64,000 nt of DNA. It comes from a virus (lineage: Duplodnaviria > Caudoviricetes). Both the position numbers and the translations under genes were made by a program. Positions 25,922-44,928 of the stretch are shown one piece after another (the stretch's first letter is position 1; each line of letters opens with the position of its first letter). The stretch lies in IMG/VR virus record IMGVR_UViG_2510065010_000001, positions 64,001-128,000 of that record. One strand, 5' to 3'. The notes below the pieces were generated by a model, which was not told the DNA's origin, searched no databases, and saw only the letters and a list, made by a program, of their open reading frames with translations.

Positions 25922-28900
25922 ATGAACGAAGATTTAGATATTGAACTAGAGAAGGAGGAGGAAAGTTCTGTACGACCGACAGATGAAAGTGCTATTGAAA
26001 CGGAATCGCCTGCCAGTCGTTTTGTAAATGACTTTGAGGATACTCTTAAAACCGGAGATCCCTTTAGACTTGTTCAACGTGTAGCTCGGACAAGCACAGA
26101 AGTTTTAGCAGATGCTAAACCAGACTCGCGCTCTGGGTTGTTCCCCCTTTCTCAGTCTGCTAACCAAGCAATGCAGTCGATGGGAGAGCGTGTTGTTCAA
26201 TCTGCTCTTTCCACAGAGCAACCATCAAGACTTCGGATTTCAGGTACACAAACTTCTCGTCTGCAAGGTTTTACATCTAGAGCACTTGCATCTGATTACC
26301 AATCTTTATTGGAACGTCCAGGTGAGTTTAAGGCTACTTTTTTCCAGTTTCAACAAGAGTCCGTTGTTAGCTCATTATTAAAAAGAACAGACCCAACAAC
26401 TTTAATAACACAGAGAGCAGCCTTTACCAGTCCTCGCGCAGATCAAACTACTGCTGAAATTTTACTCGGCAACGAACTCACCTATGCTGCTGGGGCTGCA
26501 TTAAGATTGCCTACGCACAACGTGTTAGGTGTTCAATCTTATGCATCTTTTCACCCTAAAGTAGGCTATGTCGGGGACTCCCAAAAAGGATTCACTGCAT
26601 TCCTGGGAACTCAAAATATTACTCCGGCGTTACAGGGTAACAACTCTCTTGAAACGTTGATGACTTTCACGACACCAGGAACCAGAGCAGTTACTACTAG
26701 CCCTACATCTTTTGTAGAACAGAGTATTGCTCAAGAAATTTATCAGCTGACAAACTCAATCTCCGACTTGGCTAACCAGGAAGGAGTTTACCGTCCAGGA
26801 CAACTTAGACGTTATCTCACACAAAACCAAGTGCAAAGAAATTTTTTGTATGTGGAGCAAGAGATTCATCAACGTATTACCCAAGCTCTGACTGCTGCTG
26901 CATTTAACGCTGCTTCGAAAAAAGACAAAGTTGTAATCAGCATGGGTGAGATTTCACTCTTATTAAAACAGTCTAAAAACTCCACGTCTCTGCTTCAGGC
27001 GATCGCTCAACTCGCTAGAGAGAACAGGCTAAACATTATTACGGACAGTAAACGGGTTAATAACTTCTTCGATGAGTTACGGTCAAACCCGGTACTATCA
27101 CATAACCGTGCTCTAGTAGACTTGTTGCTTCAGACAGGTTCACTTAAAGTTGCAACTACTGGTTACCAGCATGACAAAACTGTTGCCATTTTTGGAGAGA
27201 GTAATCAGCTTCGCTTCTTTAACGTTGGTTCTGCAAACTTTTCTGCCGATTCTATGACGGCAGTTAAAGACCTTGGAGCCAATCGCGAATACTTTGATAG
27301 TGCTCTGGCTATTCTCAAACAGCAACCGAATTCATTTGACAACAACGCTCCACTAAACCTAGATGTAAACTTAATGCTAGGTAGTGGACCGTATGCAGAC
27401 AATCTCAGAGCAGCCCCGGCTGCTGAAGCATATCTTAAGCATTTAGCTCCACAACTGTATAACCATTACTCAAACTTGTCTGCAGGTTGGTTGCAATCTA
27501 GAACTATTTATCACACAGGTTATTTAGCTGAACGGCGTGCTGATCCAACTAAAGTAGAACAACTTAGGCAAGGTCTTGAAGTACTGTCTCAAGAATTAGG
27601 TGGGTTACTAGAAGTAACTGGACGTTACTCGACTGACCAGGGTAAAGCTACCCAAGTCGGGTTAACAGTTAGAGTTAAAGCACTTGGCTCTTCTTCTGTA
27701 CAAACAACCCTTAAATTAAGCGTTGACAGGTATGGCAACGTTATTTTACCTGAGACAAATAAAGTTATTCCTGGGTCTGTATTTGTCAACAAAACTTCAC
27801 AAGTAAGACGAGTAGTCGGAAGAGATGTAGCACCTGGCGCGTCTGCTCAATTAACGGGGGTAGAAACTGCTGTTGGTCTGATCGGTACTATCAGTCGAGA
27901 ACTGAGTTATCAGGCAAAGTTTGGAATTGTGGACACTCTTTTTGAGAGGATGGGAACGACTCAGTTCCAAACGCTTAAATCTGCGAGTCGAACACTTCTG
28001 GCAAAAAGTATTCAGGCATCAAATGAGGTTTTCAAAGGAAACCCACAACTTAATTTAGTGAGTCTCCTTTCTGCCTTAAATACTGATGAACTTGATGCTC
28101 AATTTGGACCTACATTATTAAATGCTCAACAGTTTTTAGCTACAGGTGACTCATCTTTACAGCTAACTGACAAGGAAAAACAGCAACGTTTTAAGGCGCT
28201 TCAATCTGTATTCTCAGAGTTTTCAGAACCTAGTAACTGGTACTCAGATAACGTAGATGATGTAGCTGCAAGACGCTTACTCCAAACACTATCAACAGAC
28301 ACTAAAGGTTTATTAACAGACCTTAAACTAGCTTTGGTTCTTTCTACTGAAGAGGGTAGAAGACAGTATCAAGCTATTCAGAATACGCAAGCACGTCGTT
28401 TAGTCCAGGATCTTACTGCTCCATTTCTAGCAGCGCATGAGTTAGGTTACTCAGCTATGCAAGGGCAAGCACGTTTGCCTATTTATGCTGAATCTGAGAT
28501 TTATGACACAAGTACTGCTTACGGAAAGGTATTAAACTCAGGGTTTCTAAACCCAGCTTTAGTAAAACCAGGTACTAAAGTTGGACAACCTGGACAGTAC
28601 TTTCGTCCAGTTGGTGCAACTTCCCATGCTAAAAAGTTGTCACTACCTGGATTTGGTAATATCCGCCAACTTAATATTATCGACGCTGATATATCCACGG
28701 GTGCGGCAGTTACCTATGACATTAAGAGACTTTTCTCATCAACGTCTGGTTTAGCCAGGATAGAAAAAGAGCAATACATTCAGCAAATGCACCAGGTGTT
28801 TAATAACCTGGGAATTGAAGCTCCAGTCATAGAAACAGATGAAGTACAATATCTGTTGCCTTTCACAAAAGCTGAACAGATACCTCAACGTTTGAAAAAT

Positions 28901-31900
28901 GTTGTTGGCTCACGCCCTGCTTTAGATGTAAACCCAGAGTTAGTGCGAAAGTTAAGGTCTCTTCAACAAGTTAAGCTTGGTGCTTCTTCTCTGTTAGCAG
29001 GTAGGTTGCGTGAGGTATTGCCGCAAACCCAATTTGAGGAGTTAGCAGCTAAAGCAACGCAGGACTTCGCTTCTGTTCAAGAATATTTTCGCTCGTCGGA
29101 GTTAGACCCACTTAACACACAACGTGGGTTTATCGGACCACGTTCGATGAAACGTGTGGCGATCGTGGGTGGTGTGTCTTTAATTGGGGATTCATCTTAT
29201 TTGAACTCTGGGTATGAACTGTACGCTGGTGATATGCAGCGCATGACTGTAAAAGTTTCTAGTCGCCAGGTCACAAACCAACTTCAGACTCAAGCATTAC
29301 TTTCCAAGTACCTTGCGCCCGGAACCACTATATTCAGTGCTCCTGTTACTCTTGCTGATAATGAGTCGTCTAGTTTACTAGCCGCATTACAACAATCTCT
29401 CGAAAGTACTGGGCAGGCAGTCACGGTTACCACGCTACAACGAGCTTTAGAAACTTATGAAAACGGTAAGTTCAAAAACGTTCTTGTCAAAAGGGATGGT
29501 TCCAGGTATCGACTTTACTATCAAGAAGGTCTTTACTCCCCAACAAAAGATGGGTACGAACGGATAGGGTCATTTGACAAAGATGGATTAATAACAGTTA
29601 GAGGCGTTGGTACGCAACAAGATACTTTGTGGGGTAGTCGTCACCAACCTATAACCTTAAAGTTTCAGGCGTTTAATAAACGGCACCAAGCTGGTATATC
29701 CGTTATCACTAGTGCCCCATCCATTCAAGTCTCGGATTCGGGCACAATGATTGTTTCAACAGATGTTTTAACAGTATGGGAACCTGGAACAGGGTCCAGA
29801 CCAACCGGAGCTGGTTTGGTAAAAGGACCATTCTCAGTTATTAAACCAGAGATCTTCAAAGATATTGATAAACTGGTTTCTCAGAGAACGTCCTTAAAAC
29901 CTCAAGCACTTGCCAATGAAAGTTTATATGGGTTATTTGGACACGGACATTTCAAAGGGTTTAACTACGAGACTGGATTATATTTACTTTCTCAGCAAGA
30001 TACTCGCGAAGCCGTTGCTCAGTTAAGCGGTCAACAAGTAGCCCAAAGTTTGTCTCTGCTATTTTTAGGTGACGAACAGATTAGGGCAGCGCTTCAAACT
30101 CAACTTAAATCGTCAGGGCTTGACCTAGCCGCTGACGCAATAAGTCACGTAAAAGCGACAGATTTTGCACAACTAAAAAACGGTAAACCTTCTACTGCAT
30201 TAGGTAGAGTTGCATTAGGTCTAACTTCTCTCTCAGATTTACCAACGGCTGCACAAGATGCATCAATAGGAAGTCTAGCCTCGGTCAAACAAACGGTACT
30301 TCGGGCATTACAGAACGATTCCCAAGCTATTCAAGTCTTAGAAACTCAGACTAGAAAATTAATCAATACCGTTATTAATTCCCCTGAGTCTGCAATTCAG
30401 TTCTCTTCAGGAGAAGTAGTTCTAAACGAAAGTAATTTGGTTGCTAGAGGCGCTGGATTACTCGCCCACTTGTCTTTCGTAGGACAGCAGTTATTTAATC
30501 CAGCTATTACGCCTGGTCGCTCAGTTAATAAACTTTACGAGCGAGATTTATCAGATGCTCAAAAGTATATTACAGATGTTGCCTACCGAAATGTAGTAGA
30601 TACGGTAGCTGCGACTGCGGGGATGAGTTTACCTGCTCCCTCTCCTAAAAATAGACAAGACATCCAGAGAAAGCTATCGCTTTTACAAGCAATGATTCAG
30701 AATGATGTCGTGATCGAAGACATCAAAGATATTACTGTTAGCCGATCGCTTGTGCCAACAGGCATGAAAGACGAAGCGGCTATGGAGTATCAATACCTTT
30801 TAGGTATGAGCAGTTCATATCTAAAAGCATTTACAAAAGTAGGAGGTGGATCTCAGGCAAGTCAAGAATTGCAATCTGCATTTGCGCGATTGTTAGGTTC
30901 ATTCAGAGTTGATTTGCCCTCTGCTAACGCACAGTTAGGCTATCGATTAGCCTTACCGGGAGAAGATAGCCAAGCATTTTTCTCAACACTTGCTCAAGAC
31001 ACACAATCGTTACTACTTTCTTACACAGAGTTAGGAGAGAAGTTAAATCTGGTTCAGTCTTCTATTGAGGAGGTTACGACAGCTAAAGGCAGTACAGCCT
31101 TGCGCCGTTTGCAACGCTTTCAGCGACTTGCAACAGGTATGACCGCTGACGGAACTTCTCAATTGGAAGCAAGAGCTATAGCTGCTAATAAACTTTTCAA
31201 CTTATCTTACTTTTCAGATCAAAAACCGGAAGACTCGAAAGCGGCAAAGCTGCAAGTCTCCCATTTAAGAAAGACCCTAAGTATCCAAAATACCTTTGCG
31301 CCTGGTGAATCTGCACTATCAATTACAACCCAGGTTGTTAGAAGAGCGTACCAGTCTTATCAAGAAGACCGATTCTTCCGTAAACAGAATGGTCAAATAC
31401 AAACAAGCTTCCAAAGCTTTGTATCTGAAGGTTCAGGTGGACGAGTTGCTCAGGCATTGGAAGAAAAATACGGTTTAATAACGGAACTAGCACAGGATTC
31501 ATTTCGTATCCCTGGTGTTCCGCTCACGGATGATACTGCAATTCTTGACACTAGGATTGCACAACGAATCCAACGAATTAATGAACGGTCATTAAATTCG
31601 ATTCAGAACGCTTACGACACATCTATATATAAGGAATTTGTTCAAGGTGCTCTCAATCTTGAAAGTAAACTTCAAGTTCAAGCAGCAAACGATCGCTCAA
31701 ATCAAGTAAGTCGTGTTCTTCAAGAAATACAAAACACTAAGCAGGTTATCTTACCTCAATTTACGGCTGAAGCAATAACCGAAGGGGAAAATGTAGGACG
31801 CTACCGACTTAAGATGCTTGACCCTGGTGAATACGATCCAACGGTAGGAGTCATGATGGGTACTGACATCCTTCGTCGTGCTCCTCTTTTATTCCCACAA

Positions 31901-34900
31901 TATACAGATGAGGCGTTGCGTTATCAGGTTGAGCTTCGACAAAAACTGCTTGAAACCAGTAAAGTCCGAGAGCAGTTGTTGAACCCAGGAGCTACTGTTT
32001 CTGAAAAGCAACTCCGGCAACTGCAAGATTTACAAGAGACTTTAGAAGGGAGTAGAGCTTCAACTTTACGTTTGCTAGACACAGACTTCACCCGCAAAGC
32101 GTTGGGCGATCGCCAGCAATTTGAAGGGACAGTAGGTATCGCAATAGGTTCTTTTGCACTTGATGCGACAGAAGCGGTATTGGGACAAAGGTACAACGCA
32201 TTAGGTTCAACCCGAAATACTTTAGCTGTCGTTGAAAACCAATTTCGTTTAGTAGAGATGGCACTTAACAGGTCTTCTAAAACAAGTGCAGTTCCAGCTG
32301 AACTACAGCAAACGTTAACTAACACCTATGAGTTGACTCGTGCATTAGGTTATAGAACAAATGAAGATCAGGTAAACCAGCAATTCCAGACAGCTCTTGA
32401 AGCTGCAGAGCGTAAAACATTAACTCGTCAACAACTTGCAGATCTGAGGGTCCAAACGTTAAGTGCTTTAGCAAACATTCCGGCTGAAAGAGTACAGCAA
32501 ACATCTCCAAATGACCTCGACAAGTTATTAAACTTGTCGTCCGGGTCTATCCGTCGAGGTGGTGCCCCCGCTGGCTCTGCCGCTTTAACTGCAGATTCTA
32601 ACTTTTATGATGTACTTGATGTTCAGTCACTACAAGCGAGACTCACTAATGAAGGCAGTGGTTTAATACCTGAGTCTGAACGTTTCAAGACAGGAATGCA
32701 GGTACCAGCAGTTGGTAGGTTGCTAGCCATGTTAGGTGACTTTGATGGAGATGCTTATCAGTTTTTATTAACTGGAGTAGGTGACCATGCATCTCAACTT
32801 TCTCATTTACAGAGAGCAACTCTGCAATTAGGTCAAAAGTTGGGATTTCTCGATAGACAAATTAATCAGACCAATACTCAAGAGTTGCAGCAAGAGCGTC
32901 AAGCGGTTCAACAGCAGTTTAACGAAGTTAGTCAACAACTTTCTGAACAAGTACAGAAGGTATCTCAGTTTTCTAGCAATATAGACCGCACTCAAAACAG
33001 AGCGTTAAAAGATGTCCGTAAATGGGTTGGATCTTATCTAGCTTTACCTGACTTTATCACTGATGAACAGAGTTCTCTCTCAACTGGAACTCTGATGAGC
33101 ATGGTTCAGCAAATGAGTGGAACTATGCCACAAATTGAAGATGCTGCACATCATATTAAATATGCGGAAGAACATCTCAGTTTATTAACTAGTGCTTTTG
33201 GTTCGTCAGACTCTCTTACGTCTGACCAGTCGGACCCGTCTAATCCTCAAACTCGAAGTAAAATAAACCAACTTCTCCAACAGAATAACTCTCTTTCAGC
33301 ATCAATGGTCGAGGGAGTTCTTCGTTACGCTAACCAACAAGAGTCTTTCACTTCAGAAGCATTTGAGTCATCAGCTCGTACTTATCTTGCTCTCCAATCA
33401 AATTTGTCTATGACTTTTGAGCAAGTTAATAAATCGATGAAGAAAGCTTCTGGTCTTATTCTCAACCCATTCGATTTTGAAGGATTGCAAGGTGTTATAG
33501 GTCAGGCGGGGACTGAACTAATCGGAAAGACGTACAACGTTTTAGTTCCGTTGCTTGACCAAACAATGTTGGACCAGGCGCTTGTAACTAGTTTGCAAAC
33601 TACAGGACAGTCTTCGTTTAGGTCTGTTATTGACCAAAACTTACAGGCGATGGCTCAAGAATCAACAATTGAAGAAGCAACAGAAATCAATAAACTACGA
33701 CGCAAGCTACTGACAGAAGACCATCAAGGTTTGCAGCAGCAACTTTCAGCTAGATTTAGTGCCGTAACAGGTACTCTTGCTTCTCTCCAACAAATAATTC
33801 GAGATGCTCTGAAAGAAAAATCAGATAAAGGAATTATTAATGTTTTGCGAGAGGCATCCTACGAGGGTAAACCTCTAGCAGAAGCATTAGAAACTGTTGA
33901 AGCTGACTCCCCATTAGAGGCGGATAAAAGAAGAAGTCAGATTCTTAAACAGGCAGTAATGACTCGTATTGGTCCAAACTTGGGAATTGGTTCTGATTCT
34001 CAGGACTATGGTATTACTGGATTTGGAGCTTTATTAAAGCTTTCTGAATTTGCTATGACAGATTCAGATGAGCAGCTGTATGAAAAATTTGTAACAGAAC
34101 CCGGTCTTGAAGATACATATCGTCAGCAAATTAAAGAAGGCAAAGTAAGTAGCGTTAGTGAATTTGCTGCCTCCCAAGTTTTATCTTTAGTAGAAAGAGC
34201 ACAGGCTTCGTTTATTTCAGGGACCTTTTCTTCGTCTACACAAGAGACATTAATAAATCAATTTAGACAGTTTCATAACGATGCTGACCAGTCAAAACTT
34301 TCTCCGGTGAACCATCAGATTTATCAAGTAATCGATGAGTACGAGCAGCAACGACAACAGCTTAGTGACAATTCTGAACTCACTAGACTTAATAACCGTC
34401 TATTGCAAGATACAACCCTAATTCAAATCCAACATCGTAATAAAGAGCAGCAAGTACTTTCTACGAATCAGTTACAGAACCTCCGAGAATTTTATCTAGA
34501 GTCTCAGAAAGTCAGATTTGATGACGGAGACGTTTACTCTAGAATGCTTGGTGCAAACGTTGATACCTACAATTCCTTTTTGAGAATGCTTCAAAGAGGA
34601 CAACAACCTACTGCTCAAGATGCCCTTTATCTTGCAGAGTATAAAATTAATGCTTTGTCAAACATCTATGATGACGAAGCTAATTTAGCGCCTGCTGATC
34701 AGATGAGAGTGGCAAGGTTGATGGGGCTTCGGGCTGGCAGCGGGTTTATATCAGACAGAGAGCAAGCATATCTCGCACAAGCTCTTACCAGAACTTCAAA
34801 AGGTGGAGTGAGTGGCTTACAGTCGCTCCAGTCTAGTACAGCTGCAATGACCCAAGGAGTTTTTCCATTAATTGATGAGTTAGAAAAAGAATTCGAATCA

Positions 34901-35857
34901 CCTACACAAGACCGAGCTGATGTTTTACGACAGCAACTAGCCGGACTTTATGAGTATGGAGTTAATGTTGACAAGTTACAAGAAGTTGGGGTTATTAAAA
35001 CTCCCCACTCTGTAGAACAGACACAAAGACTAGCTCAATCTGCTAGTGAACAACTTAATAAACTAATCTCTCCAGTCGAGGAGCTGGGAGAACGTCCCAT
35101 AGCTCATTCAATCTTGCAACCGGACTCAAGGTTAGAAGCATTAGGGTTATTTGTCGCTCCAGCTTTATTAGCCTTAGCAGGTTCCGATGTCAAATTAGAT
35201 GATCGGGTTGGAATGTTCACCCTAGACGTTTTGCAAGCAACAGCAACTCTAACTAGTAGGTCTGATACTTTAACAGCACAGTTAGCAGGTGGTTCTGCAT
35301 CGTCAAAGGCTGCATTTAATTTTTCTGCAGGACGAGTTCGACAATCTTTAGAGACTGAAGGGTTAGCCGTAGGTGCTGTGCAAGGGCTAATACAAGAGGG
35401 TGTTTTTCAAGGTATTAGTCGAGCTGCCTATTCAACAATTGACCATTTTGCAAACAAATTACCTGGGGGTAAAACAAAAGCAGGTAATGCTATAGCGACT
35501 GTAGCGGCTGAAGCTTTGTCAACAGTTTTATCTTTAGGAATCTCTCGCGCCGTAACAAAACAGCAAACTCGTGGAGAAGAATTTGTCCCAGATCGTATTG
35601 GAGATATTCTGAAAAATGTTACGGAGCAGATCTGGCAAATGGTAGAACAGGCACAGTTAGCAATGTCAGATCCAAATTATGAAGTGTTAGATACTACAGA
35701 AAACCAAAGTATGAACTTTGAAGTTAGTGCTGTTCCTTCCCAGTTTGAACAAGACATTCAATCCGGTTTAATTGTTTTAGATGAAGAAGGTAACCAAATT
35801 GCTACTGAGTTTGAGTCTAGCTCTTCTGAACAAGTTCAACTAGCTGGAAGTTTCTAA
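25922..35857 (+). CDS. giant protein: tandem PLD (HxK) domain plus single-chain two-barrel RNA polymerase; putative virion RNAP
   Basis: HPK..GTQN (~aa 211) and HDK..GSANFS (~aa 417); IGDSSY (~aa 1090) and GSRPTGAGLVKG (~aa 1291) beta-like motifs; RRGGAP (~aa 2211) and MLGDFDGD (~aa 2273, nt 32738-32752). Confidence 0.78.
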   Translation: MNEDLDIELEKEEESSVRPTDESAIETESPASRFVNDFEDTLKTGDPFRLVQRVARTSTEVLADAKPDSRSGLFPLSQSANQAMQSMGERVVQSALSTEQPSRLRISGTQTSRLQGFTSRALASDYQSLLERPGEFKATFFQFQQESVVSSLLKRTDPTTLITQRAAFTSPRADQTTAEILLGNELTYAAGAALRLPTHNVLGVQSYASFHPKVGYVGDSQKGFTAFLGTQNITPALQGNNSLETLMTFTTPGTRAVTTSPTSFVEQSIAQEIYQLTNSISDLANQEGVYRPGQLRRYLTQNQVQRNFLYVEQEIHQRITQALTAAAFNAASKKDKVVISMGEISLLLKQSKNSTSLLQAIAQLARENRLNIITDSKRVNNFFDELRSNPVLSHNRALVDLLLQTGSLKVATTGYQHDKTVAIFGESNQLRFFNVGSANFSADSMTAVKDLGANREYFDSALAILKQQPNSFDNNAPLNLDVNLMLGSGPYADNLRAAPAAEAYLKHLAPQLYNHYSNLSAGWLQSRTIYHTGYLAERRADPTKVEQLRQGLEVLSQELGGLLEVTGRYSTDQGKATQVGLTVRVKALGSSSVQTTLKLSVDRYGNVILPETNKVIPGSVFVNKTSQVRRVVGRDVAPGASAQLTGVETAVGLIGTISRELSYQAKFGIVDTLFERMGTTQFQTLKSASRTLLAKSIQASNEVFKGNPQLNLVSLLSALNTDELDAQFGPTLLNAQQFLATGDSSLQLTDKEKQQRFKALQSVFSEFSEPSNWYSDNVDDVAARRLLQTLSTDTKGLLTDLKLALVLSTEEGRRQYQAIQNTQARRLVQDLTAPFLAAHELGYSAMQGQARLPIYAESEIYDTSTAYGKVLNSGFLNPALVKPGTKVGQPGQYFRPVGATSHAKKLSLPGFGNIRQLNIIDADISTGAAVTYDIKRLFSSTSGLARIEKEQYIQQMHQVFNNLGIEAPVIETDEVQYLLPFTKAEQIPQRLKNVVGSRPALDVNPELVRKLRSLQQVKLGASSLLAGRLREVLPQTQFEELAAKATQDFASVQEYFRSSELDPLNTQRGFIGPRSMKRVAIVGGVSLIGDSSYLNSGYELYAGDMQRMTVKVSSRQVTNQLQTQALLSKYLAPGTTIFSAPVTLADNESSSLLAALQQSLESTGQAVTVTTLQRALETYENGKFKNVLVKRDGSRYRLYYQEGLYSPTKDGYERIGSFDKDGLITVRGVGTQQDTLWGSRHQPITLKFQAFNKRHQAGISVITSAPSIQVSDSGTMIVSTDVLTVWEPGTGSRPTGAGLVKGPFSVIKPEIFKDIDKLVSQRTSLKPQALANESLYGLFGHGHFKGFNYETGLYLLSQQDTREAVAQLSGQQVAQSLSLLFLGDEQIRAALQTQLKSSGLDLAADAISHVKATDFAQLKNGKPSTALGRVALGLTSLSDLPTAAQDASIGSLASVKQTVLRALQNDSQAIQVLETQTRKLINTVINSPESAIQFSSGEVVLNESNLVARGAGLLAHLSFVGQQLFNPAITPGRSVNKLYERDLSDAQKYITDVAYRNVVDTVAATAGMSLPAPSPKNRQDIQRKLSLLQAMIQNDVVIEDIKDITVSRSLVPTGMKDEAAMEYQYLLGMSSSYLKAFTKVGGGSQASQELQSAFARLLGSFRVDLPSANAQLGYRLALPGEDSQAFFSTLAQDTQSLLLSYTELGEKLNLVQSSIEEVTTAKGSTALRRLQRFQRLATGMTADGTSQLEARAIAANKLFNLSYFSDQKPEDSKAAKLQVSHLRKTLSIQNTFAPGESALSITTQVVRRAYQSYQEDRFFRKQNGQIQTSFQSFVSEGSGGRVAQALEEKYGLITELAQDSFRIPGVPLTDDTAILDTRIAQRIQRINERSLNSIQNAYDTSIYKEFVQGALNLESKLQVQAANDRSNQVSRVLQEIQNTKQVILPQFTAEAITEGENVGRYRLKMLDPGEYDPTVGVMMGTDILRRAPLLFPQYTDEALRYQVELRQKLLETSKVREQLLNPGATVSEKQLRQLQDLQETLEGSRASTLRLLDTDFTRKALGDRQQFEGTVGIAIGSFALDATEAVLGQRYNALGSTRNTLAVVENQFRLVEMALNRSSKTSAVPAELQQTLTNTYELTRALGYRTNEDQVNQQFQTALEAAERKTLTRQQLADLRVQTLSALANIPAERVQQTSPNDLDKLLNLSSGSIRRGGAPAGSAALTADSNFYDVLDVQSLQARLTNEGSGLIPESERFKTGMQVPAVGRLLAMLGDFDGDAYQFLLTGVGDHASQLSHLQRATLQLGQKLGFLDRQINQTNTQELQQERQAVQQQFNEVSQQLSEQVQKVSQFSSNIDRTQNRALKDVRKWVGSYLALPDFITDEQSSLSTGTLMSMVQQMSGTMPQIEDAAHHIKYAEEHLSLLTSAFGSSDSLTSDQSDPSNPQTRSKINQLLQQNNSLSASMVEGVLRYANQQESFTSEAFESSARTYLALQSNLSMTFEQVNKSMKKASGLILNPFDFEGLQGVIGQAGTELIGKTYNVLVPLLDQTMLDQALVTSLQTTGQSSFRSVIDQNLQAMAQESTIEEATEINKLRRKLLTEDHQGLQQQLSARFSAVTGTLASLQQIIRDALKEKSDKGIINVLREASYEGKPLAEALETVEADSPLEADKRRSQILKQAVMTRIGPNLGIGSDSQDYGITGFGALLKLSEFAMTDSDEQLYEKFVTEPGLEDTYRQQIKEGKVSSVSEFAASQVLSLVERAQASFISGTFSSSTQETLINQFRQFHNDADQSKLSPVNHQIYQVIDEYEQQRQQLSDNSELTRLNNRLLQDTTLIQIQHRNKEQQVLSTNQLQNLREFYLESQKVRFDDGDVYSRMLGANVDTYNSFLRMLQRGQQPTAQDALYLAEYKINALSNIYDDEANLAPADQMRVARLMGLRAGSGFISDREQAYLAQALTRTSKGGVSGLQSLQSSTAAMTQGVFPLIDELEKEFESPTQDRADVLRQQLAGLYEYGVNVDKLQEVGVIKTPHSVEQTQRLAQSASEQLNKLISPVEELGERPIAHSILQPDSRLEALGLFVAPALLALAGSDVKLDDRVGMFTLDVLQATATLTSRSDTLTAQLAGGSASSKAAFNFSAGRVRQSLETEGLAVGAVQGLIQEGVFQGISRAAYSTIDHFANKLPGGKTKAGNAIATVAAEALSTVLSLGISRAVTKQQTRGEEFVPDRIGDILKNVTEQIWQMVEQAQLAMSDPNYEVLDTTENQSMNFEVSAVPSQFEQDIQSGLIVLDEEGNQIATEFESSSSEQVQLAGSF

Positions 35858-38281: not shown

Positions 38282-39799
38282 ATGTATCAAGGTCAGAGTA
38301 AAGTTCTGGAACTTGTTGATGTTCCATTTAATCCTAATAGTCGCCCCCGCAACAAGTTAAAACAGCTAGGCGACTACAAGTCCATTGCTGGACACTACAG
38401 ACGACCGATGGCTCAACGTCTGTTGGAATTTGAGCAAATTGCTCTGTTTGACACAACAGTTTCGTATGTTCTCTTTATCCTGATTGACACGTTAATTTCT
38501 CTACTGGGTCCAATTGAGCATCCTGATAAAGAAATTAGGGATTTCCTTAGAGAAAATATTGATGTGCTAGGTGGATTGCCTGGTGCAAAAAATGAAGATG
38601 AGGAAAAGTCTAACAGCGATTTTAAGTCGAGTCAGATTTATCAAGCGCTTTACCGAGCAATACACTGTTCATTGTGGGCTGGGTTTTCAACCTCAGAAGT
38701 TCTTTACACAGTTAATAAAGGGCGACTTTTTATTGAAGATTTTCTAACCTACCACCCGGCAACAATCATAGTGAGACCGAATAAAAAAGGTAGGTTAACA
38801 GAGGGAGAACCTACTCATGAACACCGTCCGTCTGGAATATACCAGCAGACTGGACTGTTAAATTACGCTTCCCCCGGTGAGACGCAGTTACCGTTATGGA
38901 AAACTGTTCATCTTCCCAGACTTTCTTTTTATGGAAACTACTACGGCACTTCCGCAATTGAACCTATTTATAAGTGGCATCTATTAAAAGAAGCTTTCAT
39001 AGACATGCAAGCGATCGCATTAGATCGTAGCGGAACTCCAATTGTTGCCATAACGATTCCAGTGTACAACACCAATCAGACAGAAGTTGACCCAGTTACA
39101 GGAGAAGAACGTCAACTTACAACTCAAGAGATTTTAGAGCGGCAGACTCAAACTCAAAACTTCGGTGGAGGTGGAAACCTATTACTTTTGCCTCAGTTTG
39201 ATGAAAAGTTACCTCCTAAAGCCCAAGTACTAACATCAGGCTCAAACGTCGGTGAATCTTTCGAAATTGGGATTGATCGATGTGACAGAGAACTTGCAAA
39301 AGGATTGTGGGTACCTTTTGTGTTATTTCCCTTTGGCAATAGGGTTGAAGGAATGTCTGATACTTATCGGGCAATGGAACTCTTTAACCGCATAATAGTT
39401 AATCTTCACAGGCAGTTTATCCACCCATTAGTCTCACAAAGTTTTCATCAATGTGTAAAGCAGAATTTTAGTAGAGAATCCGCAAACATTGCCCCTTGGT
39501 TTCCAATACGGCAAACCACCCGACCAGAAGACCGTGTGGCATTGATGCAAATGATTTCAGGTTTAACTGACCGTGGTTACTTTAATCCTCTTAACGACCA
39601 AGATTGGCTAATGGTGCGTGAGATGGTAGATGCAATATCTCGTGCGCCAAATGATGTTGACCGCAAATTTATTAATGACATGATTATTGTGCCTAAGCAA
39701 CCTGCACCGGGCGGTTCCTCTAAAGGTTCAGTTAGAGGTAAAGGTGTAGGAGCCGGAAGACCAACGGGAACTTCAGCTCCTAAATCCAATAAGAGTTAA
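38282..39799 (+). CDS. portal protein (DUF935/Mu gp29-like)
   Basis: LWAGFSTSEVLY, NYYGTSAIEPIYKW..K..LDRSGTP, IDRCDRELAKGL; lies before protease and capsid genes. Confidence 0.85.
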   Translation: MYQGQSKVLELVDVPFNPNSRPRNKLKQLGDYKSIAGHYRRPMAQRLLEFEQIALFDTTVSYVLFILIDTLISLLGPIEHPDKEIRDFLRENIDVLGGLPGAKNEDEEKSNSDFKSSQIYQALYRAIHCSLWAGFSTSEVLYTVNKGRLFIEDFLTYHPATIIVRPNKKGRLTEGEPTHEHRPSGIYQQTGLLNYASPGETQLPLWKTVHLPRLSFYGNYYGTSAIEPIYKWHLLKEAFIDMQAIALDRSGTPIVAITIPVYNTNQTEVDPVTGEERQLTTQEILERQTQTQNFGGGGNLLLLPQFDEKLPPKAQVLTSGSNVGESFEIGIDRCDRELAKGLWVPFVLFPFGNRVEGMSDTYRAMELFNRIIVNLHRQFIHPLVSQSFHQCVKQNFSRESANIAPWFPIRQTTRPEDRVALMQMISGLTDRGYFNPLNDQDWLMVREMVDAISRAPNDVDRKFINDMIIVPKQPAPGGSSKGSVRGKGVGAGRPTGTSAPKSNKS

Positions 39800-40407
39800 A
39801 CCATCTTTGCAGTATCTTGGAAGGCAAGCCGATCACTTAAATAGTAGTCCACTATTTTTAAGTGTATGCACTTAAACCCTGGAACATACTTCCCTACTTC
39901 AATAAATTGCTGACAATCACAATGATTTGGAGTACATCGTCTTCGTGCCCCAGACGGAGTGTTAATTATGATATGCGACCCAATTAATTCCGTTATAGTG
40001 TAGCCTTCATAAACTGCTCGTGCTACTAAAAGTAAATCGTAGTGCTCTTGAACATTTGCAATCGCCCTTAATTTTTTCTGCTTCTTTTTACCTCTAAACC
40101 AGTAGAGGAGTAACCAATCATCCCCAGTTTCAATTAAAGATGCTGACTCCATAGCGGTTAAGAAGCTTTCCGCTAAAACAAGTCTTACAAAGCATTCTTC
40201 AAAATCTTCTAAGCTCTTTCCTTTTAAAGACGCAGATATTTGATAGCGTCTTGCATATTCTTTCCAATTGTCTGGTAGTGGCAAGCTTAGTTTTTTACCG
40301 TCTTGCAAGATCACTTGCATCGTGTCTTGTGTTACTTCGGTTTTTGTAATGGATAAAGAATCCTGTAAATGTTCTAAGACTAAAAGGGTAGCTAACGAGT
40401 AATCCAC
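39796..40407 (-). CDS. SWIM-type zinc-finger protein
   Basis: CDC..F..CIH near the C-terminus. Confidence 0.65.
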   Translation of the reverse strand: MDYSLATLLVLEHLQDSLSITKTEVTQDTMQVILQDGKKLSLPLPDNWKEYARRYQISASLKGKSLEDFEECFVRLVLAESFLTAMESASLIETGDDWLLLYWFRGKKKQKKLRAIANVQEHYDLLLVARAVYEGYTITELIGSHIIINTPSGARRRCTPNHCDCQQFIEVGKYVPGFKCIHLKIVDYYLSDRLAFQDTAKMV

Positions 40408-40510
40408 GTAACCTTTAACTCCGAAGTATTGCTATAACGCCATTAAAATTGAGCAGCCTTGCGCTCTTGATTTCCCTAAAGTGTTAGAGAGAAATAAATC
40501 TCCCTAACTT

Positions 40511-42289
40511 ATGATTTCTGACAGCCAGCTGATTGCTGACTTGGTGATGAATAGTGTTAATGTCAAGCCTGACCTTATGGAAATACAGGCTGGACAACCT
40601 GTAAACCAAGTTGTTAATCAAACACCACAACCACAATCTTTGTCTCTGCCGGATGAAGTACTTACTGTAGCATCTACAGATAAGCTAAATAGTACTATAA
40701 ATGTTGACGCTCAAACACATCTAAGTCACGAATCTGATTCGGAAAAATTATCTATTTCGATTGGTGGTCATTGGTCGGATAGTAACAGCCAGTTAGCAGG
40801 CAACTTTCCGTTTTCTAAAATGTGGAGAGCTGCAAGATTTATCTCATGTGTCTTGTCAGAAGCGTCTGATTCTAAGTACCACCGTCTTTCTCTTGCTCTA
40901 AATTCCAGCGATGATAGTTCAGACTCAGACTGGGTTGTAACAGCTAATTTCAAGTATGAGTCGGAAGTTTCAGATACAGAGCTTTTGTTAGCTCACTATG
41001 CTAGCTATATTCATTTAAGAATCGGAGCTTTGCCTAGTTACTACGACGAGTACTACGCAAATCCTACTTCTCAGAATCAAGATGAACTTAATAAGTTAGC
41101 TGAATCTCTTCGATCCGATGCTATTAAACTGACTCAAAAAACTGAAGATGAGAGTTTCACCTGGGTTCAGAAATTAGCCGGACAACCTTTGGGCGTAGAC
41201 TCTTCCAAACGACTTATTAAGGTTCCATTCTGTGTTCTCGGCTCTTGGAGCCATCCGGTTTATGAAACGGTTAGTTTCACACAGAATGACTTTGACAACA
41301 TGAAGCAAAACTTTGCCAATGGTGAAGTTGGGTTTGAACCCCCCTTATTTCTAGGTCATCCGATTGATACGGATACTATGGAGGGTCATGCTGCAGAAGC
41401 CTTCTTACAAGAAATTGTTCAGGAAGGGAACGTACTTAGCGGCATCTTCGAGACGGTTTCTGACGAAACATATGCAGCGGTAGCGTTAGGGCGCTACCGC
41501 TATAGCAGTGGTGAGTTCATAAGAAATTGGCAGTCAAAGAGTAACGGTAAATCTGTTGGTACTGTGCTGATTGGAGTAGCACTAACAAATAGACCATTCT
41601 TGCCAAATTTGCCTCGCGTGAGTGCCCTGTCTGCTCCTTTGGAGTCTAGGGTGTCTCTAACTTTTCAACTTACAAACCCAGATTTAGTCCAACATATGAC
41701 TACCCAAACTTCTCCTGAAAAGCAACAGGAGCAGACATCTGTTGCTGCTTCACAACCCGTTCAATCGCCTTCACCAACACAAACACAGGACTTGTCAATG
41801 ACAACAGAACTTGAACAGTTCAAGAACTTAGTAAACCAACAGTTTACAGATCTTAAACAGTCTTACACACAACAGTTTGAAGCTCAAAAGCAGGAATTGG
41901 CGGCAGCTATTGCTCGTCTTACAACTGCAGAAGCCGAAAAGCAAGATTTAGCTACACGTCTTGCTGCAGCTGAAGAAAAGTTAAAAGCAACAGAAGTAAA
42001 CGCCAAACTTGCTGAGCTTGAAGCTTTGACCTTACCTGTTGAAGTGAAAGAGAAGTATAGCGAACTCATCAAGAACGGAACCCTTGGTGAGCAAGAGTCT
42101 GTTGTGATGGAAACGCTCAAACAGATGAGCCTTACTCGTGTGCAAGAAGCGACTACTCAACACGGGACTGTCACTGCAACACAAGCACTCAATGATCCAA
42201 ACGTTCAAGACCCTTATGCCTCAGTAATTGAGCGTAACCAACAGCTTGCAAAAGCCAAAGAAAAAGCGTTGATGTCTTTGCTTAGCTAA
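40511..42289 (+). CDS. prohead protease/scaffold (Mu I-like)
   Basis: PPLFLGHP, YRYSSGEF, LIGVALTNRPFLPNL, then a coiled-coil scaffold-like C-terminus. Confidence 0.85.
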   Translation: MISDSQLIADLVMNSVNVKPDLMEIQAGQPVNQVVNQTPQPQSLSLPDEVLTVASTDKLNSTINVDAQTHLSHESDSEKLSISIGGHWSDSNSQLAGNFPFSKMWRAARFISCVLSEASDSKYHRLSLALNSSDDSSDSDWVVTANFKYESEVSDTELLLAHYASYIHLRIGALPSYYDEYYANPTSQNQDELNKLAESLRSDAIKLTQKTEDESFTWVQKLAGQPLGVDSSKRLIKVPFCVLGSWSHPVYETVSFTQNDFDNMKQNFANGEVGFEPPLFLGHPIDTDTMEGHAAEAFLQEIVQEGNVLSGIFETVSDETYAAVALGRYRYSSGEFIRNWQSKSNGKSVGTVLIGVALTNRPFLPNLPRVSALSAPLESRVSLTFQLTNPDLVQHMTTQTSPEKQQEQTSVAASQPVQSPSPTQTQDLSMTTELEQFKNLVNQQFTDLKQSYTQQFEAQKQELAAAIARLTTAEAEKQDLATRLAAAEEKLKATEVNAKLAELEALTLPVEVKEKYSELIKNGTLGEQESVVMETLKQMSLTRVQEATTQHGTVTATQALNDPNVQDPYASVIERNQQLAKAKEKALMSLLS

Positions 42290-42341
42290 TTTTTTTAATT
42301 CCGTAACCGTTCCCAGCGTACTAATTCCTGACTGATAAATT

Positions 42342-43652: not shown

Positions 43653-43687
43653 TTTTAATAAGCATTTGGAAATTTAGGAGATTATTA

Positions 43688-44389
43688 ATGAGTGCCACAT
43701 CAGGACAACGGTTTGATTATCAGGCATACACTGAGGGTCAGCGTGGTGGTCTGAGTCTTTATCCGTACTGCGGAATTATTAACGGTTTACAAGTCAGTAC
43801 CGTTGCTATCGCAGGTACAGGCAACGTGAACTTGACAATGAACGTGTCAGCGGGTGCTGCAAGACTTGATGGACAATACTGTTCACTAGCTGCTGGAATT
43901 ACGACTTTGGTTCTTCCAGTAGGATTAGACTTAAACGTAGGCGACTACACATTTAATGTTTGGCTGAACGCAAGACGCCTGGTTCCTGCACAAGCTTCTG
44001 CGCCAGGTGCGCCTGCTACAAATGATAAATACATCAAGGTAGTAGATAAAGGGTCATATCTAGAGGTAGATGATATTCTCTACTACACTGGAAGTGTGTG
44101 GGCTAAATATAACGCTATATCAGGACCCCCTGCATTGCAAGGACATAACAACCTTCCTCTTAACGAGGTCAATGCGACCATCCACAACGCAACATCCAGT
44201 AACCAATCTTTTGCACTCACAGCAGAAAAGCCTGTTTACCACAAGACAAATTATCCTGTGGGTTTATCATCACCTGGAGCCGCTTACTTAAGACAGCCAG
44301 CAGCCATAAAAATTGCGACAATTAATATCGCTAACGGCGGTACTATCACGTCTACCATTTATGGTGATGAAGTTCGCATTCCAATTTAG
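43688..44389 (+). CDS. virion structural protein (head decoration-like)
   Basis: AGGAG SD; GIINGLQV..VSAGAARLDG beta-rich; follows the capsid gene. Confidence 0.55.
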   Translation: MSATSGQRFDYQAYTEGQRGGLSLYPYCGIINGLQVSTVAIAGTGNVNLTMNVSAGAARLDGQYCSLAAGITTLVLPVGLDLNVGDYTFNVWLNARRLVPAQASAPGAPATNDKYIKVVDKGSYLEVDDILYYTGSVWAKYNAISGPPALQGHNNLPLNEVNATIHNATSSNQSFALTAEKPVYHKTNYPVGLSSPGAAYLRQPAAIKIATINIANGGTITSTIYGDEVRIPI

Positions 44390-44409
44390 TAAGTTAATAA
44401 GTAACCACT

Positions 44410-44910: not shown

Positions 44911-44928
44911 CATACTCGTACTTCAGCG

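What the first reader, a model, noticed from the sequence alone, without database searches (positions are those of the whole stretch)
25922..35857. 3311-aa protein fusing a tandem PLD (HxK..GxxN) domain to a two-barrel RNA polymerase
Two HxK motifs with downstream GTQN and GSAN (aa ~211 and ~417) form the paired active site typical of PLD-superfamily nucleases and phospholipases. Further on come beta-like motifs and a canonical LGDFDGD, then about 1000 aa of helical, Gln-rich sequence with hydrophobic segments near the end. Size and position fit a virion-packaged RNAP like crAss-like phi14:2 gp66 or P23-45 gp96. A PLD fusion is, to my knowledge, not part of those enzymes. It might breach membranes during injection, nick or process DNA, or process RNA ends.
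Basis: partly seen in the sequence, partly recalled or inferred. Interest (0 to 1): 0.9.

Follow-up and report, generated by a model that had tools for sequence, protein, structure and literature searches.

The report
Giant cyanophage PLD–RNA polymerase fusion protein
A 3,311-residue, cysteine-free gene beside the head genes of a roughly 200-kb prophage in a cyanobacterial chromosome joins a phospholipase-D-type enzyme to what is probably a cell-type RNA polymerase that the phage carries into its host, in a phage group published as having no polymerase of its own.

Summary
ORF 25922..35857 (+) encodes 3311 aa with HxK...GxxN at aa 211-232 and 417-439 and LGDFDGD at aa 2271-2277.

The protein belongs to a family of 50 cluster representatives, 44 of them over 3000 aa. 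The family includes the unannotated gp080 of Microcystis phage Ma-LMM01.

The catalytic motifs are conserved across the family:
- HKD1 keeps H, K and N in 44 of 44 members.
- HKD2 keeps H and K in 41 of 41.
- GDxDGD is present in 50 of 50.
- Three basic residues upstream (R1293, K1301, K1345) are kept in 49-50 of 50.

All 47 full-length members have no cysteine.

PLD membership is supported by Pfam PLDc_2, just over its cut-off, and by profile comparisons. Its fold was not tested.

The RNA polymerase reading is only moderately supported. A pLDDT-74 model puts DFDGD between strands, and 43 of 48 Foldseek rows are RNA polymerase entries. None is significant (best E 0.19). The beta-like barrel did not fold.

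Virion packaging is inferred, not shown.

This scan has already found the family on other DNA. I found no paper describing it.

The parts
25922..35857 (+). Whole gene: 3311 aa, no cysteine. Member of the Ma-LMM01 gp080 / PHROG 31006 family.
26369..26821 (+). First PLD (HKD) lobe, aa 150-300. Active-site motif H211-x-K213 ... G229-T-Q-N232 lies at nt 26552-26617.
   Evidence: Invariant in 9 of 9 homologues. H, K and N kept in 44 of 44 members. hhalign of the family profile lands on the HxK motif of 3 of 3 host PLD proteins, E 3.6e-4, 0.033 and 0.058, against 0.09-0.35 for the reversed sequences. Sub-threshold PF09565 (NgoFVII PLD domain) on this lobe in the L004 homologue, E 0.023.
26912..27361 (+). 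Second PLD (HKD) lobe, aa 331-480. Active-site motif H417-x-K419 ... G436-S-A-N439 lies at nt 27170-27238.
   Evidence: Pfam PF13091 PLDc_2, E 2.1e-6 to 3.3e-6, 27.4-28.0 bits against a cut-off of 27. H and K kept in 41 of 41 members, N in 39 of 41. hhalign against the PLD domain of the 5284-aa neighbour gives E 4e-5.
28379..29251 (+). Conserved block N2, aa 820-1110. Contains the motifs EQIPQRLKNVVGSRPALD and GGVSLIGDSSYLN. [quoted passage not shown]
   Evidence: Found in 49 family members. Shared with Ma-LMM01 gp080 (BLASTP E 7e-7).
29489..30121 (+). Candidate beta-like barrel region B1, aa 1190-1400, with R1293, K1301 (KGP) and K1345 (FKGF).
   Evidence: R kept in 49 of 50 members, K in 50 of 50, K in 49 of 50. 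Motif-level likeness to the host beta motifs RHGNKGIISRILP and GGQRFGEME (my reading). The fold was not obtained: model 1 has pLDDT below 50 here.
32534..32776 (+). Candidate beta-prime-like catalytic barrel half, aa 2205-2285: IRRGGAPAG ... FYDVL ... GMQVP ... LGDFDGD ... AYQFLL. The DFDGD loop lies at nt 32738-32752.
   Evidence: GDxDGD in 50 of 50 members. R2212, G2214, P2216, P2262 and R2266 are invariant in 9 of 9. Model 2 places strands at aa 2207-2212, 2228-2232, 2258-2262 and 2279-2283 around the loop. Foldseek: 43 of 48 rows shown are RNA polymerase entries, best E 0.19.
32768..32995 (+). Long helical hairpin directly after the DFDGD strand, aa 2283-2358.
   Evidence: Model 2, helices 413-436 and 440-478. 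It dominates the VIA-align lists.
33389..33871 (+). Conserved helical block C1, aa 2490-2650, with the motifs GQAGTELIGKTYN and QQIIRDALKEK. Possibly bridge-helix or trigger-loop-like; untested.
   Evidence: Highest conservation in the protein. Nearly invariant G, Y, N, Q, Q, R, D and K columns in 40-49 sequences. Aligned with gp080. Lies inside the PHROG 31006 match.
35039..35857 (+). C-terminal block, aa 3040-3311: two moderately hydrophobic helices (aa 3074-3092 and 3190-3208) and an acidic, Ser/Glu-rich tail. Presumed packaging or ejection module.
   Evidence: The function is inferred only.
14941..19452 (-). Context: two adjacent genes (1109 aa and 377 aa) that look like a split non-virion two-barrel RNAP. 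The 377-aa protein carries SRAPMTTPS ... AGDCDGD.
   Evidence: Motif level only: there are no PDB or Pfam hits.
38282..52190 (+). Context: structural module downstream. Portal 38282-39799, major head protein 42342-43652, tail sheath 49371-52190.
   Evidence: PHROGs E 1.6e-13, 5.7e-48 and 6.1e-57. The same gene order follows the homologue in a 195-kb IMG/VR contig.

Best explanation
The gene encodes a multi-domain protein of a Ma-LMM01-like (Fukuivirus-related) contractile-tailed cyanophage. Here the phage is integrated as a ~205-kb low-GC island in a cyanobacterial chromosome. I read the protein as a virion-carried, ejected enzyme with four parts.

1. An N-terminal bilobed PLD/HKD phosphodiesterase (aa ~150-480) with both catalytic His/Lys pairs intact.
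2. A very diverged single-chain two-barrel RNA polymerase. Its beta-like half supplies the invariant R1293, K1301 and K1345. Its beta-prime-like half supplies the RxGxPAG ... GDFDGD metal-binding loop (aa ~2205-2285).
3. Conserved helices (aa ~2490-2650) that may act as bridge helix and trigger loop.
4. A C-terminal ~600 aa with amphipathic or hydrophobic helices and an acidic tail, for packaging and ejection.

Proposed mechanism (inferred): the protein is made late, together with the head genes, and packaged. It is threaded unfolded through the tail on infection, and the complete lack of cysteine fits that. It then transcribes the first phage genes independently of the host polymerase. A second, non-virion two-barrel RNAP (the split genes at 14941-19452) takes over afterwards, as in Thermus phage P23-45.

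The PLD module most likely cuts or holds a nucleic-acid phosphodiester. Candidates are host DNA or RNA, or the leading end of the phage genome. I think this more likely than lipid hydrolysis because the same module also heads the 5284-aa tape-measure-like protein of this phage. That position is the one P23-45 gp96 uses for its DNA-facing RNAP.

What is shown: the motifs, their conservation, family membership, gene context and a PLD profile match. What is inferred: the barrel folds, polymerase activity, packaging and the PLD substrate.
For: Family and conservation:
- 50 representatives at E <= 1e-3, 44 of them over 3000 aa.
- The blocks HKD1-HKD2-N2-B1-M1-DPBB-C1-Cterm are collinear in nearly all members.
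- GDxDGD in 50 of 50; R1293 in 49 of 50, K1301 in 50 of 50, K1345 in 49 of 50.
- HKD1 keeps H, K and N in 44 of 44. HKD2 keeps H and K in 41 of 41 and N in 39 of 41.

PLD domain:
- PF13091 at 27.4-28.0 bits against a cut-off of 27.
- In the ESM-Atlas feature search, the PLDc_2 set accounts for 18 of 30 hits, scores 0.89-0.92.
- hhalign to host PLD proteins and to the PLDc_2 domain of the neighbouring giant protein gives E 3.6e-4, 4e-5 and 1.2e-4, against 0.14-0.75 for reversed controls.
- BFVD names the Ma-LMM01 homologue a 'PLD phosphodiesterase domain-containing protein'.

RNA polymerase:
- Model 2 (pLDDT 74.2) puts DFDGD in a loop between strands.
- Order and spacing match the host beta-prime stretch [45 protein letters not shown].
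- 43 of 48 Foldseek PDB rows are RNAP entries: QDE-1 at rank 1, plus the AR9 and PhiKZ non-virion RNAPs, Pol I and bacterial beta-prime.

Virion or ejected protein:
- The gene lies 2.4 kb upstream of the portal gene, on the same strand. The order giant-portal-major head protein is kept in a 195-kb viral contig.
- There is no Cys in any of the 47 full-length members.
- Precedents are gp96 of P23-45, with an identical DFDGD (PMC10770324, sections 6, 11 and 12 read), and the crAss-like vRNAP (preprint 10.1101/2020.03.07.982082; abstract in the search listing and one find call, which returned only a methods passage).

A second RNAP-like gene pair lies in the same element.
Against: - No significant match to any RNAP by sequence or fold. 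Pfam gives nothing on the whole protein or on the barrel segments. PDB sequence searches give nothing.
- hhalign against the host beta-prime aligns only the five DFDGD columns, E 0.015 (reversed control 0.095). The B1 block against host beta gives E 0.14, which is no better than its reversed controls.
- hhalign against the phage's own 377-aa RNAP-like protein gives E 0.3.
- Foldseek's best E is 0.19, with TM-scores of 0.1-0.2 and rmsd above 12 A.
None of its 49 Foldseek rows is an RNAP.
- About 900 aa separate the candidate barrels, far more than in gp96 as described in PMC10770324.
- The PLD fold was not modelled. A PDB profile search with the PLD alignment found no PLD. HKD1 against HKD2 gives only E 0.085.
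- 5 of 47 full-length members lack the PLD module, so it is dispensable for the core function.
- There are no proteomic, expression or biochemical data.
Confidence: 0.6

Rival explanations
1. It is an ejected or internal virion protein with a working PLD enzyme but no polymerase. GDxDGD would then be a conserved divalent-metal loop serving another function, such as structural Ca/Mg binding or a different nucleotidyl or phosphoryl transfer. The rest would be a helical scaffold for genome delivery, like the giant ejection and inner-body proteins of other large phages.
For: No RNAP profile or fold match reaches significance. Most of the protein is helical, and its weak structural neighbours include tape measure and minor tail proteins. 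The beta-like barrel was not recovered.
Against: The sequence around the loop matches the beta-prime order element by element: R-x-x-P, strand, x-Q-x-P, helix, GDFDGD, strand. 43 of 48 Foldseek rows are RNAP entries. Three upstream basic residues are invariant. The identical motif marks a proven virion RNAP in gp96 (PMC10770324).
Confidence: 0.2
2. It is a two-barrel polymerase that is not packaged. It would act inside the cell, for instance as a middle or late transcriptase, or as a PolD-like or primase-like nucleic-acid polymerase. The PLD would then process nucleic acids during replication.
For: Packaging is untested. The two-barrel superfamily also contains the archaeal DNA polymerase PolD and RNA-dependent enzymes (PMC10770324 section 11; PMC7824862 passage). 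QDE-1 is the top Foldseek row.
Against: The gene heads the head/portal module in this prophage and in a 195-kb relative. Total absence of Cys in all 47 full-length members and the giant size fit a translocated protein. The element already has a separate RNAP-like gene pair among its replication genes, and an earlier unchecked note of this scan reports a split family A DNA polymerase beyond the window.
Confidence: 0.1
3. This concerns the PLD module only. It would be a phospholipase that remodels or breaches the host membranes during ejection, rather than a nucleic-acid phosphodiesterase.
For: PLDc_2 includes lipid-acting enzymes such as cardiolipin-synthase-like proteins. The module sits on two proteins that must cross the envelope. 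Moderately hydrophobic helices exist in both proteins.
Against: On the tape-measure-like protein the wall-degrading domains are C-terminal and the PLD is at the opposite, N-terminal end. That is where gp96 carries its DNA-facing RNAP (PMC10770324 abstract, Fig. 5 legend). A sub-threshold hit of lobe 1 in a homologue is to a PLD-type restriction endonuclease (PF09565, E 0.023). 5 of 47 members do without the module, which is hard to square with an essential role in penetration.
Confidence: 0.25

Closest known systems
Microcystis phage Ma-LMM01 gp080 (BAF36171.1, 3562 aa, 'hypothetical protein'; PHROG 31006)
   Same: Same family. BLASTP gives 25% identity over aa 2271-2660, E 9e-15, including LGDFDGD and the GQAG..IGKTYN and QQ..RDA.K.K motifs. 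A second segment, aa 941-1011, gives E 7e-7. PHROG 31006 matches at E 1.2e-15. It is the top BFVD structural hit, E 2.8e-4, named 'PLD phosphodiesterase domain-containing protein'. Like this gene it lies beside head and sheath genes.
   Different: Only distantly related: tblastn with two 580-600-aa pieces found nothing in the phage collection. In gp080 the PLD is seen only as a sub-threshold PF00614 hit, E 0.018. Ma-LMM01 is a lytic isolate, whereas this copy sits in a chromosome. The papers I saw do not ascribe any polymerase to this phage group (PMC5780444 passages; PMC9927357 passage).
Thermus phage P23-45 gp96, a virion two-barrel RNAP fused to the tape measure protein, with the non-virion RNAP gp64 (PMC10770324)
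   Same: A giant virion protein with an identical DFDGD motif and otherwise undetectable similarity to known RNAPs. It is paired with a second, non-virion two-barrel RNAP in the same phage. The enzyme domain is placed at the N-terminal, DNA-proximal end of a giant delivered protein.
   Different: In gp96 the RNAP occupies the first ~1100 aa of the tape measure, with DFDGD at 779-783. Here the putative RNAP lies in a separate 3311-aa protein encoded next to the portal gene. It sits behind a PLD domain, and the candidate barrels are ~900 aa apart. The tape-measure-like protein of this phage carries a PLD instead. No sequence similarity to gp96 was tested directly.
crAss-like phage phi14:2 gp66 virion RNAP (PDB 6VR4; preprint 10.1101/2020.03.07.982082)
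   Same: A large, virion-packaged, single-chain protein with a DFDxD catalytic motif, related to QDE-1-type polymerases. QDE-1 is also the top Foldseek row for my model.
   Different: A podovirus of Bacteroidota. The preprint's main text mentions no PLD. No significant structural match to 6VR4 appeared in my lists.
Coliphage N4 virion RNAP (about 3500 aa)
   Same: A giant RNAP that is packaged in the head and ejected. Its polymerase core lies between N- and C-terminal regions whose roles are still being worked out (abstracts in the listings; the N4 roles in ejection and encapsidation are otherwise recalled).
   Different: The N4 enzyme is a T7-like single-subunit (palm-fold) polymerase, not a two-barrel one (PMC7824862 passage).
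Bilobed PLD-superfamily phosphodiesterases (Pfam PLDc_2 PF13091; PLD-type restriction endonucleases PF09565)
   Same: Two HxK...G(S/T)xN motifs in one chain. The Pfam match lies just over the cut-off on lobe 2. The profile aligns onto the HxK motifs of host PLD proteins.
   Different: Very divergent. There is no match to any PLD of known structure, and lobe 1 is below every Pfam threshold. It is fused to a ~2800-aa non-PLD protein. The substrate is unknown.

Membership tests
PLD superfamily (HKD phosphodiesterases; Pfam PLDc_2 PF13091) | Two HxK(x)nG(S/T)xN active-site motifs, here within one chain | tested here: met
   H211/K213...GTQN232 and H417/K419...GSAN439. Invariant in 9 of 9 homologues. 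Across the family, H and K are kept in 44 of 44 (lobe 1) and 41 of 41 (lobe 2).
PLD superfamily (HKD phosphodiesterases; Pfam PLDc_2 PF13091) | Profile match to a curated PLD family at its cut-off | tested here: met
   Lobe 2: PF13091 at 27.4 and 28.0 bits against a cut-off of 27, E 3.3e-6 and 2.1e-6. This is seen only when the N-terminal 400-460 aa are scanned alone. The whole protein gives nothing, and 2 of 4 family segments match at E <= 0.01. Lobe 1 is supported only by hhalign against host PLDs, E 3.6e-4.
PLD superfamily (HKD phosphodiesterases; Pfam PLDc_2 PF13091) | Bilobed alpha/beta PLD fold with the two HKD motifs facing each other | not tested
The ESM Atlas holds no model. The PDB profile search found no PLD.
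Two-barrel (double-psi beta-barrel) RNA polymerases | DxDxD metal-binding loop inside a beta-prime-type double-psi barrel | tested here: inconclusive
Two-barrel (double-psi beta-barrel) RNA polymerases | Second (beta-type) barrel supplying conserved basic residues to the active site | tested here: inconclusive
   R1293, K1301 and K1345 are kept in 49-50 of 50 members and resemble the host beta motifs. However, model 1 is below pLDDT 50 there and none of its 49 Foldseek rows is an RNAP. hhalign of the B1 block against host beta gives E 0.14.
Two-barrel (double-psi beta-barrel) RNA polymerases | Detectable sequence-profile similarity to a known RNAP family | tested here: inconclusive
   There is no Pfam or PDB hit. 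hhalign against host beta-prime aligns five columns only, E 0.015. According to PMC10770324 section 12, such families typically share only the DxDxD region.
Two-barrel (double-psi beta-barrel) RNA polymerases | Template-dependent RNA synthesis | not testable with these tools
   Needs biochemistry.
Virion-packaged phage RNA polymerases (gp96, gp66, N4 vRNAP) | Protein present in the virion and delivered to the host | not testable with these tools
   Context only. The gene lies beside the portal and head genes. There is no Cys in any of the 47 full-length members. I saw no proteomics: PMC9927357 says mass spectrometry is still needed.
Ma-LMM01 gp080 family (PHROG 31006) | Significant sequence match to the family profile and to gp080 | tested here: met
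   PHROG 31006, E 1.2e-15. BLASTP against gp080, E 9e-15. BFVD gp080 fragment, E 2.8e-4.

The most novel reading that the evidence does not exclude
Ma-LMM01-type cyanophages, including temperate ~200-kb relatives integrated in cyanobacterial chromosomes, would run a host-independent transcription cascade. It would start with an injected PLD-RNA polymerase fusion.

The PLD module heads both the polymerase and the tape-measure-like protein. PLD enzymes act through a covalent phosphohistidine intermediate. The module could therefore engage the leading end of the phage genome, holding or nicking it, so that DNA entry and the first transcription are physically coupled.
Probability: 0.12. Interest if true: 0.85.

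Novelty: new variant of a known kind. Interest (0 to 1): 0.72.

Why it matters
Ma-LMM01 and its relatives are the model phages of toxic Microcystis blooms. The papers I saw describe them as depending on the host polymerase. PMC9927357 states that MaMV-DH01 lacks RNA polymerase. PMC5780444 explains all three expression classes by host sigma-70-like promoters.

If the giant protein is an injected polymerase, the early programme of these phages needs re-reading. The set of virion two-barrel RNAPs, so far crAss-like podoviruses and Thermus siphoviruses, would then extend to contractile-tailed cyanophages.

I did not find a PLD enzyme fused to such a polymerase, and repeated on the tape-measure-like protein, described anywhere. 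It points to an unrecognised step of genome delivery or host takeover.

The claim is directly testable with a cultured phage: virion proteomics, rifampicin-resistant early transcription, and assays of recombinant fragments.

Tried and rejected
Searches that found nothing:
- Megablast of the gene, and tblastn of aa 2001-2600 and aa 820-1400, against 50,697 phage records gave no match. Ma-LMM01 is in that collection, so the relation to gp080 lies below tblastn's reach with these pieces.
- phmmer of the protein and hmmsearch of alignments A1 and A6 against PDB sequences gave only chance-level rows, best E 0.12, 0.42 and 0.15.
- Pfam on the whole protein gave two unrelated weak rows. Pfam on three segments (aa 2180-2310, aa 1881-2310 and aa 1190-1400), on the 377-aa RNAP-like protein and on two short family members gave no RNAP family.
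- The ESM Atlas search with aa 2050-2300 gave no usable hit.
- PDB sequence searches with the two RNAP-like neighbours gave nothing.
- Pfam on four PLD-less family members gave no family, so nothing shows what replaces the PLD there.

Comparisons that were not significant:
- hhalign of five family blocks against the host beta and beta-prime was not significant.
- A5 against the 377-aa RNAP-like protein gave E 0.3.
- HKD1 against HKD2 gave E 0.085, although the motifs aligned in register.

Structure searches:
- VIA-align against 48,161 chains returned only matches to the helical hairpin at model residues 403-478.
- Model 1 (aa 1150-2340, 9 sequences) was too poor to use. Its Foldseek list holds no RNAP in 49 rows.

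Other searches:
- The genome search with PF13091 on the window's own genome listed nine places. Neither giant ORF was among them, not even the 5284-aa protein, which scores 52.5 bits when scanned directly. The first-look filter therefore missed them and the result says nothing.
- The search for related loci in one genome per species found a single locus, on a 15.8-kb contig of a MAG labelled Halobacteria archaeon. In IMG/VR it found two loci.
- The look-up of sequencing runs listed no RNA holder. It listed one DNA run with a 0.06 share of the words (hot springs metagenome), which I did not lay on the sequence.

Readings rejected:
- A tape measure reading. The tape-measure-like gene is the 5284-aa ORF further downstream, and this gene lies before the portal gene.

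Literature:
- Five searches and term look-ups in PMC10770324, the crAss vRNAP preprint and PMC7824862 turned up no text that links cyanophages or PLD domains with two-barrel virion RNAPs.
- Supplements are closed. Supplementary Data 3 of PMC10770324 (23 RNAP families) could already contain this family. Table S3 of PMC5780444 could give the expression class of gp080.


Full report
**The observation**

The window holds one uninterrupted ORF, 25922..35857 on the + strand, ATG start, 3311 aa.
- HPK at aa 211-213, followed by GTQN at 229-232.
- HDK at aa 417-419, followed by GSAN at 436-439.
- LGDFDGD at aa 2271-2277, the only DxDxD in the protein.

The last ~1030 aa are Gln-rich and, where modelled, helical. 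The two most hydrophobic 19-aa windows of the protein lie at aa 3074-3092 and 3190-3208. Their Kyte-Doolittle means are about 1.6, which is borderline for a membrane span. The protein has no cysteine.

**Setting**

The window is G000:C1:682804-746803 of a 5.53-Mb single-contig genome. The host's beta-prime is split: a 624-aa product carries NADFDGD. From general knowledge that is the cyanobacterial arrangement.

The gene lies in a low-GC island of 0.40-0.43, against 0.46-0.49 in the flanks. The island runs from about 605 to 812 kb, next to tRNA-Tyr and tRNA-Thr at 601.8 kb. It therefore looks like an integrated element of about 205 kb.

Neighbours by PHROGs:
- A Dda-like helicase at 12994-14871 (-).
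- Portal at 38282-39799.
- Major head protein at 42342-43652.
- Tail sheath at 49371-52190.

The homologue in a 195-kb IMG/VR contig is followed by ORFs of matching sizes and order, which I did not annotate. The giant gene is thus the first gene of the head module of a contractile-tailed phage. It is not its tape measure.

**The family**

A word-based search with aa 1900-2700 found nine other proteins of 3217-4363 aa on contigs of up to 582 kb. An exhaustive phmmer search with aa 1150-2340 found 50 representatives at E <= 1e-3, and 44 of them exceed 3000 aa.

I built HMMs from eight blocks of the nine-sequence alignment. They show the same order, HKD1-HKD2-N2-B1-M1-DPBB-C1-Cterm, in nearly all of the 53 proteins examined. 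Five of the 47 full-length members have no HKD hit, and six rows are fragments.

All 47 full-length members have zero cysteines.

PHROG 31006, a 3562-position profile of unknown function, matches aa 2253-2662 at E 1.2e-15.
- The 3562-aa CDS BAF36171.1 ('hypothetical protein', beside the head and sheath genes) aligns with aa 2271-2660 at 25% identity, E 9e-15.
- It also aligns with aa 941-1011 at E 7e-7.
- Its third BFVD fragment is the best viral structural match of my model, E 2.8e-4.

**The PLD part**

The evidence is as follows:
- Scanned alone, aa 101-560 and aa 130-530 hit Pfam PLDc_2 over aa 335-449 at 27.4 and 28.0 bits, against a cut-off of 27. The whole protein gives no hit.
- Among four family segments, two reach E <= 0.01.
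- At E <= 0.1 the best Pfam rows are PLD families for the L002 segment (PLDc_2, 23 bits), the L004 segment (PF09565, the NgoFVII PLD domain, on lobe 1, E 0.023) and gp080 (PF00614, E 0.018). The exception is L003.
- The lobe-1 family profile aligns onto the HxK motif of three of three host PLD proteins, E 3.6e-4, 0.033 and 0.058. The reversed sequences give 0.09-0.35.
- The lobe-2 profile aligns with the PLDc_2 domain of the neighbouring 5284-aa protein at E 4e-5, and the two-lobe profile at E 1.2e-4. Reversed controls give 0.5-0.75.
- In the ESM-Atlas feature search the PLDc_2 set accounts for 18 of 30 hits.
- The catalytic H and K are kept in 44 of 44 (lobe 1) and 41 of 41 (lobe 2) members. 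The Asn is kept in 44 of 44 and 39 of 41.

That conservation argues for an active enzyme. What is missing is a fold.

**The polymerase part**

GDxDGD is present in 50 of 50 members. It is among the handful of columns that stay invariant in the 49-, 40- and 24-sequence alignments.

The second (aa 1881-2700, 24 sequences) reached pLDDT 74.2 and pTM 0.44. It places strands at aa 2207-2212, 2228-2232, 2258-2262 and 2279-2283, with DFDGD in the loop before the last strand.

Set beside the host's own beta-prime, the elements follow in the same order:
- IRRGGAPAG beside LLNRAPTLH.
- FYDVL beside IQAFEP.
- GMQVP beside AIQLHP.
- AVGRLLAMLGDFDGD beside [13 protein letters not shown].
- AYQFLL beside QMAVHV.

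The phage protein has a ~25-aa insertion within this stretch. This alignment is my reading, not a statistic.

Structure searches gave the following:
- Foldseek against the PDB gave no hit at E <= 1e-3. Even so, 43 of the 48 rows shown belong to RNA polymerase entries. These are QDE-1 (rank 1, E 0.19), Pol I, the AR9 and PhiKZ non-virion RNAPs and bacterial beta-prime, over ~310-350 columns.
- The search independent of Foldseek saw only that hairpin.

Sequence profiles add nothing beyond the motif. That agrees with the statement in PMC10770324 (section 12) that RNAP families often share only the DxDxD region.

For the second barrel I have only conserved residues. R1293, K1301 (KGP) and K1345 (FKGF) are kept in 49, 50 and 49 of 50 members. 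They resemble the host beta motifs RHGNKGIISRILP and GGQRFGEME. The region did not fold, and none of model 1's 49 Foldseek rows is an RNAP. I put the probability of a two-barrel polymerase at about 0.75.

**Delivery**

Nothing here shows packaging. The case rests on four points:
- The gene's place at the head of the structural module, which is conserved.
- The giant size.
- The absence of cysteine across the family, which suits a protein threaded unfolded through a tail and across an envelope. This is my inference.
- Two precedents. One is P23-45 gp96, found by searching virion proteins for DxDxD, and active with DFDGD at 779-783 (PMC10770324, sections 6 and 11). The other is the crAss-like virion RNAP (preprint abstract).

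As in P23-45, the element also has a second RNAP-like enzyme. It is split into 1109-aa and 377-aa genes next to the helicase, and the latter carries SRAPMTTPS...AGDCDGD. That match is at motif level only.

**What the PLD might do**

The same kind of bilobed PLD (PLDc_2, E 5.9e-14) opens the 5284-aa protein 8.7 kb beyond the window. By my reading, that protein continues with hydrophobic and helical sequence, an HExxH region and C-terminal wall-degrading domains. It is, in other words, a tape-measure-like protein.

Its PLD therefore sits at the end opposite the wall-degrading domains. That is the position of the RNAP in gp96, which is proposed to work on the entering DNA (PMC10770324, Fig. 5 legend). 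I therefore favour a nucleic-acid substrate, either host DNA or RNA or the genome end, at about 0.5. A phospholipid substrate I put at about 0.25, and a non-catalytic role takes the rest.

Five of 47 members lack the module, so it is an accessory to the core function.

**Novelty**

This scan has met the family at least eight times on other DNA, twice as a PLD-RNAP fusion. Those notes gave me the gp080 lead, which I verified. Some of them also report failing to confirm the fold.

In print I found nothing:
- Five searches gave no relevant paper.
- Look-ups in PMC10770324, the crAss preprint and PMC7824862 gave no mention of cyanophage, Microcystis or PLD in this context.
- PMC9927357 says MaMV-DH01 lacks RNA polymerase.
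- PMC5780444 attributes all Ma-LMM01 expression classes to sigma-70-like promoters.

Supplements were closed, so the 23 RNAP families of PMC10770324 could include this one.

New in this window are the integrated state of the element and the second PLD on the tape-measure-like protein. I class the finding as a new variant of a known kind.

Noticed in passing
L001:465-16319 (genome 755464-771318, 8.7 kb beyond the window's end): A 5284-aa tape-measure-like protein begins with its own bilobed PLD domain (HAK at aa 93, HTK at aa 270; Pfam PLDc_2 E 5.9e-14). It ends with wall-degrading-looking domains. It has 2 cysteines. The two giant proteins of this element therefore carry the same kind of N-terminal enzyme.
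   Followed up: partly
genome about 605,000-812,000 (the window lies inside it): A low-GC island of about 205 kb (0.40-0.43, against 0.46-0.49 in the flanks) lies next to tRNA-Tyr and tRNA-Thr at 601.8 kb. It looks like an integrated jumbo-sized relative of the lytic phage Ma-LMM01. blastn between the flanks found no direct repeats. A tRNA-Arg lies inside it, at window 4598-4670 (-).
   Followed up: partly
window 14941-16074 (-) and 16123-19452 (-): Two adjacent genes (377 aa and 1109 aa) look like a split non-virion two-barrel RNA polymerase (SRAPMTTPS...AGDCDGD in the shorter one). They have no Pfam or PDB sequence match.
   Followed up: partly
window 25736-25912 (+): A 58-codon ORF ends 9 nt before the start of the giant gene, in the 315-nt gap between the divergent genes. 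I read it by eye from the sequence and did not compare it with relatives.
   Followed up: no
L002 (JBDGRN010000018.1, 15.8-kb contig): The only family member found among one genome per prokaryote species sits on a short contig of a MAG labelled Halobacteria archaeon. It may be a phage contig binned with the wrong organism.
   Followed up: no
family proteins P0034, P0035, P0047, P0053, P0054: Five full-length members (3048-3801 aa) have the polymerase blocks but no PLD module. Four of the five (P0035 was not scanned) were run whole through Pfam and hit no family, so their N-terminal 160-590 aa remain unnamed.
   Followed up: partly
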